Origin: Octopus vulgaris
Lineage: Eukaryota
Direction: 5' to 3'
DNA: 64,000 nucleotides
Assembly (NCBI GenBank): GCA_951406725.2
Contig: OX597816.1
Span: forward strand, 84,134,001-84,198,000
Shown: positions 4,445 to 61,917 of the stretch, piece by piece
Layout of the letters: each line of letters begins with the position of its first letter
How positions within the stretch are numbered: position 1 is the stretch's first letter
The notes under the pieces: generated by a model
The model's input: only the letters and a program-made list of their open reading frames with translations
What the model was told of the DNA's origin: nothing
The model's database searches: none
Program-made: the position numbers and the translations under genes

Positions 4445-4865
4445 GGCGGCGAGCTGGCAGAAACGTTAGCACGACAGGCGAAATGCTTAGCGGTATTTCG
4501 TCTGGTGCTACGTTCTGAGTTCAAATTCCGCCGAGGTCGACTTTGCCTTTCATCCTTTCGGGGTCTATCAAATAAGTAGCAGTTACGCACTGGGGTCGAT
4601 ATAATCGACTTAATCCGTTTGTCTGCCCTTGTTTGTCCTCTCTGTGTTTAGCCCCTTGTGGGTAGTAAAGAAACAGGTATTTCGTCTGCCGTTACGTTGT
4701 GAGTTCAAATTCCACCGAGGTTGACTTTGCCTTTCATCCTTTCGGGTTCGATAAATTACGTATCAGTTAAACACTGGGGTCGATGTAATCGACTTAATCC
4801 CTTTGTCTGTCCTTGTTTGACCCCTCTAAGTTTAGTCCTTTGTGGGCAATAAAGAAATAAGAAAC
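4445..4865 (+). mobile_element. tRNA-derived SINE, family A, with a tandemly duplicated body
   Basis: Head ggcggcgagctggcagaaacgttagc with B box gagttcaaattcc; core gtcgactttgcctttcatcctttcggggtcgataaa. The body is repeated at 4676-4865. Confidence 0.85.
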
Positions 4866-4883
4866 TGAAAGAAGCTCGTCGTA

Positions 4884-4946
<63 letters not shown>

Positions 4947-5592
4947 GTGTGTGTATATGTTTGTATGTCTGTTTTTGTGGCCCCAACATCGCTTGACAAC
5001 CAAATGTGGCGTGTTTACGTTCACGTAACGTAGCGGTTCGGCAAAAGAGAATAAGTACTAGGCTTACAAAGAATAAGTCCTGGGGTCGATTTGCTCGACT
5101 AAAGGTGGTGCTCCAGCATGGCCCTAGCCAAATGACCGAAACAAGTAAAAGAATAAAAGAGAGAAAGTAAAGAGTAAACACACACACACACATATACTCA
5201 GAGGAAAGATAAGGATTAACCTAGTTCATATTAAAGTTCCTACGCGCATTTCACCGTTACGGATGTTTGAAGTCTTGCTATAGATGTGCTAAATGCATAT
5301 GGATACTCAATCACAACGGATCCAATGGTTATACTTCATTTGTATCAAGTGACAAACATCTATGACTTGGTGAAACGGACGTAGAAACCTTAATATGAAT
5401 TTGTGTTTCTCTTTTTTTTTCTACATTTGCTCAAAGGCTCATAATTAGTAATACTGCTCAGTATAGAAGTTAATTAACAACTATACAGGAAGTAGATAAT
5501 CTACGTGAAGATCTAAATATAACAATAGTAATCATGATTCTACTTGTACAAATAATTAATGTATGTGTGTGTGTGTGCGCGCACACACACAT

Positions 5593-17060: not shown

Positions 17061-17122
17061 TAAGTAAGGTACTTACCACACAGCTACACCTGCGCCTATA
17101 TAAATATGTGTGTGTATGTGTG

Positions 17123-17165
<43 letters not shown>

Positions 17166-17169
<4 letters not shown>

Positions 17170-19399
17170 ATATGCTCAATCACCTACCGAATACTATAAA
17201 CAAAAACACCATACTGGTATCCTTCGATGTAGTCAACCTCTACTCCAATATCCCCCACAACCTAGGACTAGAGGCAATTCAATTTTGGCTAGAGAATCAC
17301 GCCAACGAACTCCCACATCGCATCAAAAAGGAATTCGTGATAGAAGGGGTTAAATTCATCCTGGAAAATAACTTCTTCGCCTTCAAAGACAACTTCTACC
17401 GACAAAAATCGGGCACTGCGATGGGTACACGAATGGACCCCTCCTTTGCCAACCTAGTCATAAGATATCTTGAAATCAGTCTGTATCGTAAGGTTCTAGA
17501 AAGATATGGTAGCCCTTTCTCCATCTACATAGAAAACAACTGGAAGAGATATCTAAATGACTGTTTCATTCTTTGGCGTGAAAATATAGAGAAACTCAAA
17601 GAATTCCAAGAAATTTTAAATGGACTGGACGTAAACATCCAATTCACGATGGAATATAGCCAGCAACAACTTCCCCTCCTCGATATCCTCATTAAGAAAG
17701 CTAATAATGTAATAGAAACAGACATATATTATAAGCCTACAGATTCTAAGCAATATCTTCCATTCAATTCATGCCACTCCAGACACACCAAGATGAATAT
17801 CCCCTTCAATCTAGCAAAAAGGATATGCACTATAGTTTATAATGCAAACACCAGAGACACACGACTACAAGAACTAAAAGATACCCTTATCACCAGGAAC
17901 TACCCACCTTCACTTATTGACATATGCATTCAACGTGCCCTTCAACTTAACATCCAGGAACTGAGACATCCCAAATCAAAGAAAAACTTACGACCAAAAG
18001 CCTTACCATACATCTCCACACACAACCCTCTCAACAATTAAGCCTTCGGCACCATCCTCCAAAACATACCCCTCCTAAAAAAAGACCACAGAATGAACAC
18101 AATCCTCCAAACACACACGATCATAAAAAGCAAGAGACAGCCTAAATCTATGAAAAGTCTCCTAACACAAGCCCGAATACACTCTTCAACACAGAAGCCG
18201 ACAGTAAAAAAATGTGAAAGACCCAATTGCGGGATATGCGATTATCTAATTGAGGGATCAGAGTTCTCCTTCAAACAGGGACAACGGTTTACAGTGAAAA
18301 GCAACTTCACATGCGCTTCGGAGAACCTGATATACACACTAACCTGCTCTGGGTGTCAAGAGCAGTACATAGGCCAAACAAAAAATTCCCCAAAACAGAA
18401 AAATAGCTTTCAGCCAACACATAGATACTTGCGCCAACAACAAAACACCAGGCTTCAGGATTTTCCCCCTCTACCAATTTAGGGACGATACAACCTCGAG
18501 ACAACGAATAAGTAAAGAAACCCTCTTTATTACAAAATACAGGCGACTTCTTAACGGGTCTACGACAAACGATTAATGCACCTCAGCTTTAGAACAACAG
18601 AAATACACAAGCAAATATTACATTCCAAAGAATCCATTACAAATCAGCCCCAATCACAGCTATAATCCATATCGGGCCAACTTCAAGTCATACAACACCT
18701 CACTACTTCCACTCATTCATATTCTCCCTTCTCTTCTTCTTCTTCTCCTCTTCTTCTTCTTCTTCTTCTTCTTCTTCTTCTTCTTCTTCTTCTTCTTCTT
18801 CTTCTTCTTCTTCTTCTTCTTCTTCTTCTTCATCATCATCATCATTATCATCATCATCGTCATCATCATCATCATCACCATCTTCATCATCTTCTTCTCC
18901 TTCTCATTTCCCTTCTTCTTCTTCTTCTTCTTCTTCTTCTTCTTCTTCTTCTTCTTCTTCTGCTCCACCTTCTACTTCTTAACTTTATCACTAATGCTTT
19001 TTAGTATAACACCATAAACAAACCTTTCAATAGAAATATTCTTCTGAATTGAACTGCAACTGCTAGCCGTCACTGACCATTCAAAATACGACCTTCAAGG
19101 CACTCCCAAATTTTTCCACCCCTTCTCCTCATCAACCTTCTTCTTCTTCTACCCTACCAAGAATTCACAATGACCTCGAACACACAAGTGCAAACAAGAG
19201 AGACAGAGAAAGGCAGAAAGAAGGAAAATGCCACTTATATTTGAACACTATGCAAATATTCCTTTAAAAAAACTTTTCTTTTAATTTTTCTAAATTTAAT
19301 TATTTAATCGTTACAGTTGAAAAGGTCTCAAAATGACCGAAACCGGTACTGAAATGTTCTTTATAAAATTATTTGAGCATTTTCTATCTTGACTTATTT

Positions 19400-19410
<11 letters not shown>
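17166..19410 (+). mobile_element. Penelope-like element, 5'-truncated (RT + GIY-YIG + pLTR), inserted in (TA)n
   Basis: RT motifs VSFDVVNLYSNIP, GTAMGT, RYLND (YLDD-like), TDIYYKPTD. After a frameshift, CERPNCGIC and IYTLTC..YIGQT. HHR in the 3' non-coding part. (TA)n on both sides. Confidence 0.93.
19312..19354 (+). ncRNA. Minimal type I hammerhead ribozyme, U3-A8 core variant
   Basis: cag UUGAAAA ggtc-N7-gacc GAAA ccg GUA ctg; palindromic stem III accggt. Confidence 0.7.
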
Positions 19411-20574: not shown

Positions 20575-20962
20575 TACCTTTTCTCATTTTGCAGGTATAC
20601 ATATATATCCAGGTTGAGTAAAAAGGAAGCAACGTTTTAAACCATGAAGAATTTGTACCAGGGTTTTGCAGATGTTTGAATTCCTTTTAAACATTTTTTT
20701 TTTGCAATTGTCTGATAATCCAGACACAGACTTGCCCAAATGGATCAATAAATTAACATTGATATTTATTTCACCGTTGTTACAGTCATCTGAAATGGAA
20801 CTGTCAAGCATCTTGATGGTTTCCTGCGAGAGAAGGAATTCAAAAATCGAACCGATGCTGAAAGTGCATCAGCTCTGGGACTCCAGATATTTATGTTACC
20901 TGAATAAACAAGCTTTAACTCATTGGAAAAAATGTGTTGATTGCAATGCTACATACTTTAAT

Positions 20963-21253
20963 ACAGTTCTATACTTAAGAGATGAGGAATTATGTACATT
21001 ATTTACATTATTTACATTTGACGGATATTTGTCCTCATCATGTTTGTTGTTAACACAACGTTTCGGCTGATATACCCTCCAGCCTTCATCAGGTGTCTTG
21101 CGAAAATTTCGAACCTGAGTTCTCATTCCTAACGTATTTTTCGATGTTATTATTATTTTGTTGTTGCTGTTGTTGTTATTATTATTCAGGTCACTGCCTG
21201 GAATCGAACTCGGAGTCTTGGGGTTAGTAGCCCGCGCTCTTAACCACTATGCC
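20963..21253 (-). mobile_element. tRNA-headed SINE (family D) with hammerhead-containing tail
   Basis: Minus strand: gcatagtggttaagagcgcgggctactaacccc...gagttcgattcc head, (AAT/AAC)n, then acac CUGAUGA a ggctg-N10-cagcc GAAA cguu gugu. A second copy lies at 60086-60895. Confidence 0.85.
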
Positions 21254-21429
21254 CACAGACATATAGCGCAGTGGTTTAGAGCGCAGGGAGTTTGCATGGC
21301 AACTTTGAGTTTGCTCAATTGAAAGGCGTAGCCTCCAGGGAAAAATTCCTCATCTTTGAAATGTGGCCCGAGTAGACCCGAATGAAATCGGGTTGTAATA
21401 CTAGTGTGTGTATATATATATATATAATA

Positions 21430-37907: not shown

Positions 37908-37911
<4 letters not shown>

Positions 37912-39141
37912 CTCTTGACAAATGCCAAACTTCACACACCACATCCACCCCCAACAGTAAAAAAATGTGCACGCTCAAACTGTGGTACCTGCCCCTTTCT
38001 ACTTGAAGGCTCTGAATTTACCTTCAAACAAGGTACGAAGTTTAAAATCAAGACTAACTTCTCCTGTTCCTCCGAGAACCTTATCTACGTTCTCACATGC
38101 GCTGGTTGCCAACATAATTATGTTGGACAAACGAGTCTCCCGTTACGTAAACGAGTAACGGTGCATAAAGAACAAATAAATCTCCCGGAATACCGACAAA
38201 TTCCACTGAGTGACCACTTAGACTCATGTGCTAAAGACTTAAACCCCAAATTCTATATATTCCCCTTCTACCAATGTAAAGACGGGATCACCACACAGGA
38301 GAGAATTAACAAGGAGAATCTCTTTATTGAAAAATTCCAAACACAACTTAATATGCAAACTCCTCGTTGATCAAACTTCCTTTCTCTACCTCACTTTTCA
38401 TGGATGGACTAACACAAATATATAAAGATACCATGCATTCATCACTTCAAGCTAAAACTTATATTCTTTAAATATCATTTTTACTATTGTTGTTATTACT
38501 ATCATTTTTATTATAAATGATATGACAATTTGAAATGCAATTGTCTATGCAGATTTATATTATTAGAAAATAATGTAAATAAAGTGTTAAAATCTGAAAG
38601 TTAAGTTAACAAGCAATTATATAAAAAAGATAATGCAAATGAAGCTAAAATGATAGTTTTATAATTTGGGTTTTATTGAAGAACTTAAAAGAGTTGTCTC
38701 CCCTTACTCACAACACAGGAACTGAAGAACCAGGACCACAATTACTACTACTTCCTGTCCTGCAAACATGCTGAATTTAACAACACAACACAACACATGC
38801 TCTTAATCCCTTTGGATCTTAACACCTCAAGGTAATTTTTTCGTAAACAACCATAAAACGCAAGATACACAACGAACTCACAATGTATCGGAGAACTTAT
38901 TTTTTAATTTTTGTACATTTTTATCACTATTCTTTTACAAAAAACAATGCAATTTTCTTTTTTTCCCCTTTCTAATTTTTAAAAAACTTCTTAAAACATA
39001 AATATTCTTGACAAGTCATACAATGACGAAAACCGGTTGAATAAATATACATTTATATATTTTATCATTTTCTCATTTTATTAAAATTTTCTTTCATTTG
39101 AGCATTCTGCATTTAAAAAAAAAAAAAAATTTTTCCTTACT

Positions 39142-40720: not shown

Positions 40721-40915
40721 TGGAGGCGCAATGGCCCTGTGGTTAGGGCAGCGGACACGCGGTCGTAAGAACGCGGTTTCGATTCCCAGACCGGGCATTG
40801 TGAGTGTTTATTGAGCAAAAACACCTAAGCTCCTCGAGGCTCCGTCGGGGTGGGGTGAACCCCGCTGTACTCTTTTACCACAATTTTCTCTCACCCTTTC
40901 TCCCTACTTCTTCCA
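40721..40915 (+). mobile_element. tRNA-derived SINE, family C, 5' part
   Basis: ggaggcgcaatggccctgtggttagggcagcggac...ggtttcgattccc; matches 42160-42337 in reverse. Confidence 0.85.
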
Positions 40916-41957: not shown

Positions 41958-42337
41958 AGGGAAGCACTCCGTCGGTTACGACGACGAGGGTTCCGGTTGA
42001 TCCGATCAACGGAACAGCCTGCTCGTGAAATTAACGTGTAAGTGGCTGAGCACTCCACAGACACGTGTACCCTTAACGTAGTTCTCGGGGATATTCAGCG
42101 TTACACAGAGAGTGACAAGGCCGGCCCTCTGAAATACAGGCACAACAGAAACAGGAAATAAGAGAAAGTTATGGTGAAAGAGTACAGCAGGGATCACCAC
42201 CATCCCCTGCCGGAGCCTCGTGGAGCTTTTAGGTGTTTTCGCTCAATAAACACTCACAACGCCCGGTCTGGGAATCGAAACCGCGATCCTATGACCGCGA
42301 GTCCGCTGCCCTAACCACTGGGCCATTGCGCCTCCAC
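41958..42337 (-). mobile_element. tRNA-derived SINE, family C, apparently full length, in (TA)n
   Basis: A/B-box head at 42337-42265; GC-rich 3' end ...ccgacggagtgcttccc; (TA)n flanks. Confidence 0.85.
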
Positions 42338-51800: not shown

Positions 51801-52210
51801 TTTGGTGAGCACATAGTGTGTGCGTGTATACTTGTATATGTGCCTGTATGAATATGTATTCGTTCGTGTGGGTGTATGTGTGTGCGTGTGTATGAAGGCG
51901 CAAGGCTTAGTGGTTTGAGCGTTGCACTCAAGATCTAGCGACCGTGATTTCAAATCCCTATATCATGTGGTACTTTAAGTTCTTGAACAAAACACTTCAT
52001 CTCATGTATTTTTCTTTCGCTGCGATCACTGGAAACGTGCCACATGGTACACCGTACATCTGTTCAGGTAACCTCAATTTGATGGAGAGAGTGAGCTAGT
52101 GTGCGGCACGAACTTTTGACTAGTAAACAAATCATTTGTGCATGTTGACCGGCAAAATCTGAACGCACATACATAGTCTTCGACGGGAGAGTCCATTCTA
52201 CAAACACATC

Positions 52211-60085: not shown

Positions 60086-60895
60086 GTTGTTCTATATTTA
60101 AGAGATGAGGAATTATGTACGTTCTTTACATTATTTACATTTGACAGATATTTGTTCTCATCTTGTTTGGTGTAGTGGTTAAGAGCGCGGGCTGCTAACC
60201 CCAAGATTCCAAGTTCGATTCCAGGCAGTGACTTGAATAATAATAATAATAATGGTATAAAAGATCGGCTACAGCAAATATTCTGCTCAATTCCACACAT
60301 TTGCTTTTCAGTTGTTTGACTTTAACCAGTTGAATATGTCCCTTGGTGTCTGACAATATGTGCATCTCTGATCATGAGCAGAAGTAGTGGGGGAGCATCA
60401 TAGCCATGTGTTGAGAGGGATTATTGGGGGTTTCAATAATTCACCTCTGGAAACATAGGTGTTTCGTTCAACATCCTCTAACAACCCTTACTCAGGGACC
60501 TTTTGAGCGGATGGGTTACTCGACCAGAAGAAAATTCTAACTGGGTCCCACCTGCAAGGTCATGTGCTGTTTATCTTGATATGAGATCACCATGTCGCGC
60601 ACATATGGTTGTGATACATGTGCCTGGTGTACCCTTATCAGACGGGTAGTCATGATGAGTATGCTGGGCTTCGTATATTTTACCCCAGTATCACTTTGAT
60701 GGCATGCACTGTTCTCTCACTCAACAACAACAACAACAATAATAATAATAACATCGAAAAATACCTTAGGAATGAGAACCCATGTTCGAAATTTCTCCAA
60801 GATACCTGATGAAGGCTGGAGGTTATATCAGCCGAAACGTTGTGATAACAACAAGCAAGATGAGGACCAATATCCGTTAAATGTAAATAATGTTA
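60086..60895 (+). mobile_element. Family D HHR-SINE with inverted tail copy and a nested insert, inside a family A SINE
   Basis: Inverted tail 60089-60169, tRNA head 60170-60235, insert 60253-60722 in (AAT)n, HHR 60802-60845; flanking duplication aaaac(c)ggaataaat. Confidence 0.82.
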
Positions 60896-61917
60896 AAAAC
60901 GGAATAAATACTGCTAAGCATTTTATCCAACGTACAAACGTTTCTACAAGCTACCCACCTTTTGAGTAACAATGAGGGAAAATGCTTGCTTTACTAATCA
61001 TAAAAAAGCTTCAAACAACCAAGGTAACTGCATGAAAAATTTAGTTTCCTTTCTTTTCCGTGTATTTTCATCTTCATTGATTTCTTCATTTTAATATACC
61101 TTACAATGATTGTAGAAGCATTATATATTGGAATATGTCATCTCATAAAAGCACTTGATAGAGAAAATTTATAGCTGAAAAACAAACAAGCGAAAAAAAA
61201 AAGAAAACGTAAACTATAGTAACTTGAGTATGTTTTTTTCTATGGATGAAAGTGAGAATACACGCGTGTATGTATGTGTGTATGTATGTATGTATGTATT
61301 ATGTGTGTGTATATGTATGTATGTCTGTAAACATGTATGCATGTACGTATGTATGTATGCATGTACTTATGTATGTATGTTTGAATGCATGGATGAGTGA
61401 TGCATTTGTGTGCCTACAGCTGGGATATCCAGTATTAATAAATTTGCGCCTAAGTATGTTATATCGCTGGATATTAATAATTGTCTATCTATCTATCTAT
61501 CTTTCTATCTATCTATCTATCTCTGTATAATACACGCACACACACATGTATATACTTACCACATGTCTAACTGCAGCGGAGCAATTTAGCTAGCTTGCCA
61601 GCTATTTACGTAAAAGATTAAGCATTATTATCTATATGCGTGAATGTGTATCTCAGTCTTTGTGTTTTTATTCATGTGTAAAAAAAAAATGATTGACAGT
61701 CATTGTTATTGGGTATAAGGTTTGGCATGTATATTAAACGAAAAACAAGCTGAGACAACCTTTTTAATAACGTTACGAATGTGCGTATAAAACAGGAATT
61801 TTGTGTCTCAATGCATATTATTCTTACGCGAGTGTGTGGTTGTATATATATATATATATTATATATATATATACACACACACATACTCACACACTCATGC
61901 ACACTCACAAACGCACG

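What the first reader, a model, noticed from the sequence alone, without database searches (positions are those of the whole stretch)
20963..21290. tRNA-Ser-headed SINE with a hammerhead ribozyme tail: candidate Penelope-mobilised SINE
Seen: on the minus strand a pol III-type head (A box tagtggtt, B box gagttcgattcc, anticodon loop ACT here and GCT in the 60170 copy) is joined through (AAT)n to a ~190-bp tail. The tail holds an intact minimal HHR core (CUGAUGA, stem II ggctg/cagcc, GAAA, palindromic aacgtt, stem I acac/gugu). A short inverted copy of the head follows at 21266-21285. Known: SINEs borrow the 3' end of their partner retroelement, and minimal dimer-acting type I HHRs mark Penelope pLTRs. 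Inference: this is a tRNA-SINE that uses Penelope RT/GIY-YIG, a pairing I do not recognise as commonly described.
Basis: partly seen in the sequence, partly recalled or inferred. Interest (0 to 1): 0.85.

Follow-up and report, generated by a model that had tools for sequence, protein, structure and literature searches.

The report
Penelope retrotransposon with tRNA-derived promoter
This repeat is not a separate SINE but the stand-alone end repeat of a protein-coding Penelope retrotransposon that carries a tRNA-derived promoter-like head, which would make it a rare coding mobile element likely transcribed by RNA polymerase III.

Summary
In detail: on the minus strand a tRNA-like head, an (AAT/AAC)n linker and a 190-bp tail with a minimal type I hammerhead; head and tail are linked genome-wide (a few thousand copies). 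The reading needs changing. The head is short-armed and closest to tRNA-Arg, not Ser. The unit is not a SINE borrowing a tail: it is the pseudo-LTR (pLTR) of a decayed RT + GIY-YIG Penelope-like element (PLE). The head follows the PLE stop codon in 14 of 14 RT copies that reach it, and the 'tail' is the first 55 codons of the PLE ORF. Copies show PLE signatures: two 3' ends about 35 bp apart, head-to-head long+short pairs, 8-14 bp target duplications. Solo and ORF-linked copies have the same majority sequence and age, so no separate SINE lineage exists. What is unusual is the A/B-box head at the pLTR start, 5' ends 13-14 nt upstream of box A, and an 800-codon ORF without TTTT (3.1 expected). 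A distant PLE shows a weaker version of the same layout. Polymerase III transcription of the coding element is inferred, not shown.

The parts
21252..21288 (+). Inverted partner arm: start of a second pLTR copy (hairpin plus first part of the head); the rest of this arm is missing
   Evidence: Sequence; head-to-head pairs are the family norm. No target duplication recognisable here.
21187..21254 (-). tRNA-derived head at the start of the pLTR (short variable arm, best match tRNA-Arg)
   Evidence: follows the PLE stop codon in ORF-bearing copies.
21244..21254 (-). Box A (first base altered at the inversion junction in this copy)
21200..21211 (-). Box B
21146..21186 (-). (AAT/AAC)n linker, variable in length; predicted 5' leader of the coding RNA; often hit by other insertions
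20960..21126 (-). First 55 codons of the PLE ORF (ATG at 21126-21124)
   Evidence: Matches N-terminus of homolog P0003, 51% over 47 columns, score 106 vs shuffled 29.6 +/- 6.0, max 56; runs on in frame into the ORF in natural copies.
21053..21096 (-). Minimal type I hammerhead inside the ORF; predicted cut after the GUU at 21057
   Evidence: Sequence; stem II forms in the MFE, the active fold (-9.9 kcal/mol) is less stable than the MFE (-13.6). Cleavage not tested.
20988..21007 (-). Zone of the 'short' 3' end of family copies (tail positions 144-163)
   Evidence: loose read ends at the same place.
20955..20967 (-). Zone of the 'long' 3' end (PLE 30-40 bp tail); this copy ends at about 20960
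60089..60899 (.). Second locus of the family: inverted long arm 60089-60173, then head 60173-60238, linker interrupted by a 469-bp insertion, and short arm to 60899

Best explanation
[quoted passage not shown] Shown: unit order is ORF stop, short UTR, hairpin, head, (AAT)n, ATG, hammerhead, ORF. Inferred mechanism: the RNA starts about 13 nt upstream of box A. The PLE protein nicks both target strands 8-14 bp apart and starts reverse transcription inside the RNA at two sites about 35 nt apart. Priming in the 5' copy of these sites yields a short head-to-tail cDNA, which is why about nine in ten arms are SINE-sized. Two cDNAs, one long and one short, are joined head to head, often through the 5' hairpin. 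The hammerhead would cut only as a dimer or with protein help and need not act in mobilisation. Confidence: about 0.97 for the pLTR identity, about 0.5 for polymerase III.
For: Head follows the ORF stop in 14 of 14 RT-seeded loci that reach the ORF end (20 examined) and in 26 of 30 GIY-seeded loci (9 of these are near-duplicates on one contig). Head-linker-ATG-ORF is contiguous in 8 of 30 junction-seeded loci; L463 and L465 are tandems, L458 and L464 begin at the hairpin and run into the ORF. 3' ends are bimodal; 51 of 55 head-to-head pairs are one long plus one short, none long plus long; 27 of 55 share a flank word of 8 bp or more against 9 of 1620 shuffled pairs. These match PMC3846280, PMC8557442 and the two internal RT starts of PMC11167929. 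For polymerase III: 86 of 129 head 5' ends lie at -15 to +4 of box A, mode -14/-13; no TTTT in the 800-codon majority ORF against 3.1 from synonymous shuffles (P 0.024), while PLE-A, -B and -C of this genome show none of this (8/8.7, 6/5.5, 6/5.4). Metagenome PLE L357 has a tRNA-like A/B segment before AAT and the hammerhead in both pLTRs, and 2 TTTT against 4.2. Headed versus unheaded elements: binomial P 0.016.
Against: No transcript starting at the head was seen: RNA reads of a related organism cover both strands equally and mostly run into unrelated flanks. Ordinary PLEs also have fixed pLTR starts at palindromes, so the pile-up does not prove polymerase III. A TATA-like word over the stop codon lies about 28 nt upstream of the pile-up and fits polymerase II as well; the Drosophila Penelope promoter has Inr/DPE elements and an intron. 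The TTTT test is modest and was chosen after seeing the head; 14 of 86 arms carry TTTT just before the hammerhead. L357 was not found by my tRNA covariance model or Rfam; it rests on motif and pairwise scores. How an uncapped RNA would be translated is unexplained. No intact ORF was found among 85 RT hits (longest open frame 569 aa).
Confidence: 0.5

Rival explanations
1. Same pLTR, but the coding RNA is made by polymerase II from a TATA/Inr promoter. The tRNA-like head is a captured passenger (for example a SINE head into whose AAT tail a PLE once inserted) that works as a leader or boundary, or only drives short RNAs.
For: TATA-like word about 28 nt upstream of the 5' pile-up; known PLE promoters are described with TATA, Inr or DPE elements; Kojima argues that autonomous partners must use polymerase II; most PLE loci with a hammerhead lack a tRNA-like upstream segment.
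Against: Leaves the strand-specific lack of TTTT over 2.4 kb unexplained, and the box A spacing and the L357 parallel become coincidences.
Confidence: 0.37
2. One reading: an independent tRNA-headed SINE lineage, transcribed from solo copies and moved in trans by the PLE; ORF-bearing copies would be its source or secondary chimeras.
For: About nine in ten arms that reach the head stop there (40 of 44). A solo copy with intact boxes and a long end could in principle be transcribed and primed internally.
Against: No column differs in majority between 26 ORF-linked and 57 solo arms; divergence 5.8% vs 5.5%; variation mostly at CpG sites, with only two weak linkage signals; the solo majority keeps the open frame. 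The head is present at both ends of the coding unit.
Confidence: 0.1
3. Short copies are ordinary 5'-truncated products primed in the 3' pLTR, and RT stalls at the hairpin before the head, so the 5' pile-up says nothing about the RNA start.
For: A hairpin lies at -14 to -3 and can extend imperfectly into the UTR; palindromes mark PLE inversion junctions.
Against: The sharp edge is on the 5' side of the hairpin (-14/-13), not at its 3' base, and copies that start at the hairpin and run on into the ORF exist (L458, L464).
Confidence: 0.2

Closest known systems
Penelope/Poseidon-clade EN+ PLEs (Anolis PAc, Adineta Pen2a, Drosophila virilis Penelope)
   Same: Single RT + C-terminal GIY-YIG ORF; pLTR holds the ORF start and a min-HHR; optional 30-40 bp tail; inverted 5' copy; 8-10 bp TSD; palindrome at the pLTR start (PMC11167929, PMC3846280, PMC8557442, PMC4209133).
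   Different: pLTR starts with a tRNA-derived A/B-box head and an (AAT)n linker; ORF lacks TTTT. The papers read describe TATA/Inr/DPE-type promoters.
Schistosome Sm-alpha / Sj-alpha
   Same: tRNA-derived polymerase III promoter together with a hammerhead in a short repeat (PMC2770079, PMC6765202).
   Different: Non-coding, often tandem, with a hammerhead shown to cleave in vitro; no coding parent that contains the head is described in those passages.
TRIMp3: Cassandra, Helenus, Ajax
   Same: Small-RNA-derived polymerase III promoter inside a terminal repeat (PMC10886601).
   Different: Non-autonomous LTR elements; the author expects autonomous partners not to share the promoter. Here the coding element itself carries it.
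Animal non-LTR retrozymes and short non-autonomous Penelope elements
   Same: Short HHR-bearing pLTR derivatives moved by PLEs (bioRxiv 2026.07.22.740005, PMC7229834, PMC6685494).
   Different: Retrozymes are head-to-tail tandems; these copies are dispersed, head-to-head and have a tRNA-like head.

Membership tests
EN+ Penelope-like element | Single ORF with PLE-type RT and C-terminal GIY-YIG | tested here: met
   RVT_1 hit; 2989 homologs, most listed ones carrying PF00078, PF28514 and PF26215; GIY-YIG-like C-terminus read from the translation, not scored by my Pfam copy.
EN+ Penelope-like element | pLTR with min-HHR that overlaps the ORF start | tested here: met
EN+ Penelope-like element | Inverted 5' copy, optional 30-40 bp tail, short TSD | tested here: met
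Penelope/Poseidon clade | No Zn-finger-like CxxC linker between RT and EN; placement with named Poseidon elements | tested here: inconclusive
   Linker lacks CxxC and the family is far from the CxxC-bearing PLE-A/B/C in a quick tree, but the tree held no named reference and the careful search did not finish.
SINE (tRNA type) | tRNA-derived head with boxes A and B | tested here: met
SINE (tRNA type) | Non-autonomous lineage distinct from its partner, sharing only the 3' end | tested here: not met
   Whole unit shared with the coding element; no diagnostic difference.
SINE (tRNA type) | Transcribed by polymerase III | not testable with these tools
   Only mRNA-type reads without usable strand or start signal.
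tRNA-Ser-derived head | Long variable arm and best match to tRNA-Ser | tested here: not met
   Short variable loop; Arg scores above Ser(AGA/CGA/TGA). Ser(GCT), Arg(ACG), Gln, His and others were not in the sample.
Active hammerhead ribozyme | Self-cleavage as monomer or dimer | not testable with these tools
   Motif present; monomer MFE is not the active fold.
Non-LTR retrozyme | Head-to-tail tandem short units | tested here: not met
   Short copies are dispersed singles or head-to-head pairs.

The most novel reading that the evidence does not exclude
Some Penelope-like elements are autonomous, protein-coding retrotransposons transcribed end to end by RNA polymerase III from a tRNA-derived promoter in the pLTR. 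Their ORFs are purged of TTTT terminators, they are translated without a cap, and internal priming makes the element spin off its own SINE-sized copies. The octopus-like family and L357 would be two instances.
Probability: 0.4. Interest if true: 0.82.

Novelty: new variant of a known kind. Interest (0 to 1): 0.62.

Why it matters
Autonomous retrotransposons are held to need polymerase II (or I, for R2), with polymerase III left to SINEs. A coding PLE with a tRNA-type promoter would break that division and suggest one route by which tRNA-headed, hammerhead-bearing repeats such as Sm-alpha arise. Apart from the promoter, the family gives genomic support to the two-site internal priming model of PLE integration: one long and one short end per insertion, with a target duplication. 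It also warns that such copies will be annotated as SINEs.

Tried and rejected
Partner search: the two active PLE families in the window (PLE-A, PLE-B) and the PF01541 hits have other pLTRs with U3-A8 hammerheads and no match to head or tail; rejected as partners. Rfam found neither tRNA nor hammerhead; one search was swamped by microsatellite hits. RNA: no RNA holder on record was listed. Raw reads of a same-label organism gave no start pile-up and no strand bias; this is no evidence for or against a short polymerase III RNA. Arms of one locus are not closer to each other than to other loci (8.3% vs 8.6%; shared minority bases 20 of 327 vs 2.2%), so snap-back and twin priming could not be told apart. 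Viral contigs gave no relative, prokaryote contigs one. PDB sequence search gave nothing useful. My tRNA model found nothing convincing in 23 of the 80 foreign PLE loci, L357 included. Earlier scan notes: nothing. DNA around the closest protein relatives (P0001-P0007) could not be obtained, so their pLTRs are untested. Ten literature searches found no description of a tRNA-headed coding PLE. Repbase, Dfam, subscription papers and family-level repeat libraries (the one supplement of PMC13282606 held has only class totals) were not visible, so the family may already be catalogued.

Full report
Observation. The window lies in a 2.8-Gb animal genome; size and repeat make-up suggest an octopus, which is my inference. 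On the minus strand, 21254-20960 reads tRNA-like head, (AAT/AAC)n, and a 190-bp tail with a minimal type I hammerhead; a 37-bp inverted piece of the head abuts it. A covariance model built from 14 tRNA genes of this genome matches the head over its full length. The variable loop is short, and the best pairwise match among the sampled isotypes is tRNA-Arg, ahead of Ser; several isotypes were not sampled. A second locus lies at 60089-60899.

Family. DNA searches gave 2949 and 3896 first-look candidates for tail queries. One locus was found in 400 kb of evenly spaced samples and none in 436 kb of flanks fetched for other queries, so there are probably a few thousand loci. Head and tail are linked: 54 of 58 head-seeded loci have the tail. 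All seeded sets are the best-scoring hits, not random draws. Copies lie about 4.5-5.5% from the majority.

The parent. The two young PLE families in the window are not the partner. Three head-seeded loci carried the 3' end of another GIY-YIG ORF directly before the hairpin or head. Searching with it showed the order stop codon, 25-bp UTR, hairpin, head, linker, tail: the head follows in 26 of 30 GIY-seeded loci, 9 of them near-duplicates, and in 14 of 14 RT-seeded loci that reach the stop. At the other end the tail runs in frame into the ORF. Its 55 codons match the N-terminus of a homologous PLE protein from another source, hammerhead-coded residues included. Natural copies read head, linker, ATG, ORF, and two are tandems. 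The unit is therefore the pLTR. The family is decayed: no intact ORF among 85 RT hits. A quick tree groups it with P0001-P0007, one cluster of which has barnacle members. The clade name Penelope/Poseidon rests on the missing CxxC linker and the hammerhead at the ORF start, not on named references.

Integration signature. 3' ends fall at tail positions 144-163 or 184-196. Of 55 head-to-head pairs, 51 join one long and one short arm; the four short-short pairs are in complex loci. This is the Penelope pattern of PMC3846280 (passages) and PMC8557442 (passages), and it fits the two internal RT starts and two-strand priming shown for Anolis PAc (PMC11167929, parts 1-2 of 4). RNA reads of a related organism break off at the same three boundaries.

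SINE or solo pLTR. Of 91 arms in 58 tail- or HHR-seeded loci, 40 start at the head, 4 continue into the ORF, 24 are cut within head or tail, and 23 lack a head. Solo and ORF-linked arms share every majority base and have the same divergence. They came from the same masters in the same burst, so there is no separate SINE lineage. Internal priming near the 5' end of the full RNA would by itself give such short copies (inference).

Promoter. Of 129 heads, 86 start between -15 and +4 of box A, 16 at -24 to -18, 8 further upstream and 19 inside the head. The -24 to -18 group is probably inflated because inversion junctions resemble the UTR; I did not check these one by one. A start at -13 is the usual spacing for a tRNA-type promoter (my own knowledge). 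The majority ORF of 18 copies has no TTTT in 800 codons against 3.1 expected, and other base runs are normal; three other PLE families of this genome and three unheaded foreign PLEs are not depleted. One of 80 foreign PLE loci, L357, a tandem element at 40% identity, has an A/B-box segment, then AAT repeats, then the hammerhead, in both pLTRs. It scores above all but one of 1500 background windows against tRNAs, and its unit has two TTTT and no longer run; my covariance model missed it. Against polymerase III: no transcript evidence, a TATA-like word at about -28 from the pile-up, fixed palindromic pLTR starts in ordinary PLEs, a TTTT variant in 14 of 86 arms, and no account of translation.

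Hammerhead. It fits the min-HHR consensus of PMC4209133 (parts 1-2 of 4), where single motifs did not cleave and dimers cleaved weakly. In PAc, cleavage needed protein and was dispensable for insertion. The only common non-CpG change within the motif's core is at the free position 7. Activity is untested.

Known versus new. Sm-alpha joins a tRNA-derived promoter to a hammerhead (PMC2770079 and PMC6765202, passages). TRIMp3 elements carry such promoters in LTRs but are non-autonomous (PMC10886601, passages). Retrozymes derive from pLTRs (bioRxiv 2026.07.22.740005, part 1 of 5 and passages; PMC7229834, passages); short non-autonomous Penelopes are noted in PMC6685494 (passages). PMC2377424 (passages) describes Inr/DPE elements for Penelope. 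PMC13282606 (part 1 of 3, one supplement) gives only class totals. The 1994 octopus SINE paper was seen only as a citation. Ten searches found no coding PLE with a tRNA-derived head; repeat databases were not visible.

Verdict. Real and PLE-mobilised, but a solo pLTR rather than a SINE. The tRNA-headed pLTR is a new variant of a known kind; transcription by polymerase III is an even bet. Interest 0.62.

Noticed in passing
window 17064-19405 (+) and 37909-38800 (+): Two young PLE families with a CxxC linker (Neptune-like, name recalled), U3-A8 variant hammerheads and (TA)n targets; over 100 copies of one are identical in protein over 153 aa, and full 753-785 aa frames are common.
   Followed up: partly
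window 60253-60721: A 469-bp non-coding repeat inserted into the (AAT)n linker; it is also in the linker of other family loci (e.g. L013, L230) and in 9 of 40 evenly spaced 10-kb samples. Possibly an (AAT)n-targeting non-autonomous element.
   Followed up: partly
L015 and L026, upstream of the tail: 3' ends of a LINE (Dong/R4-like by recalled motif) sit in the (AAT)n linker in place of the head.
   Followed up: no
L185:3082-7693: Tandem 359-bp repeat with a canonical-core hammerhead in each unit, five on one strand and two on the other; retrozyme-like.
   Followed up: no
L357:2030-2200 and 4821-4990: Intact tandem PLE from a metagenome contig with a tRNA-like A/B segment ending in CCA, AAT repeats and a hammerhead in both pLTRs.
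   Followed up: partly
ORF-bearing copies, e.g. L285 and L290, between stop codon and head: The 25-bp UTR resembles an old inverted copy of the head's 5' end, which may record how the head was captured; a TATA-like word overlaps the stop codon.
   Followed up: no
window 42254-42330 (-), 40727-40803 (+), 51896-51966 (+): Other tRNA-headed repeats, unrelated to this tail, score with the tRNA model.
   Followed up: no
cluster of P0006: The nearest named relatives of the PLE protein are from the barnacle Amphibalanus amphitrite; horizontal transfer not tested.
   Followed up: no
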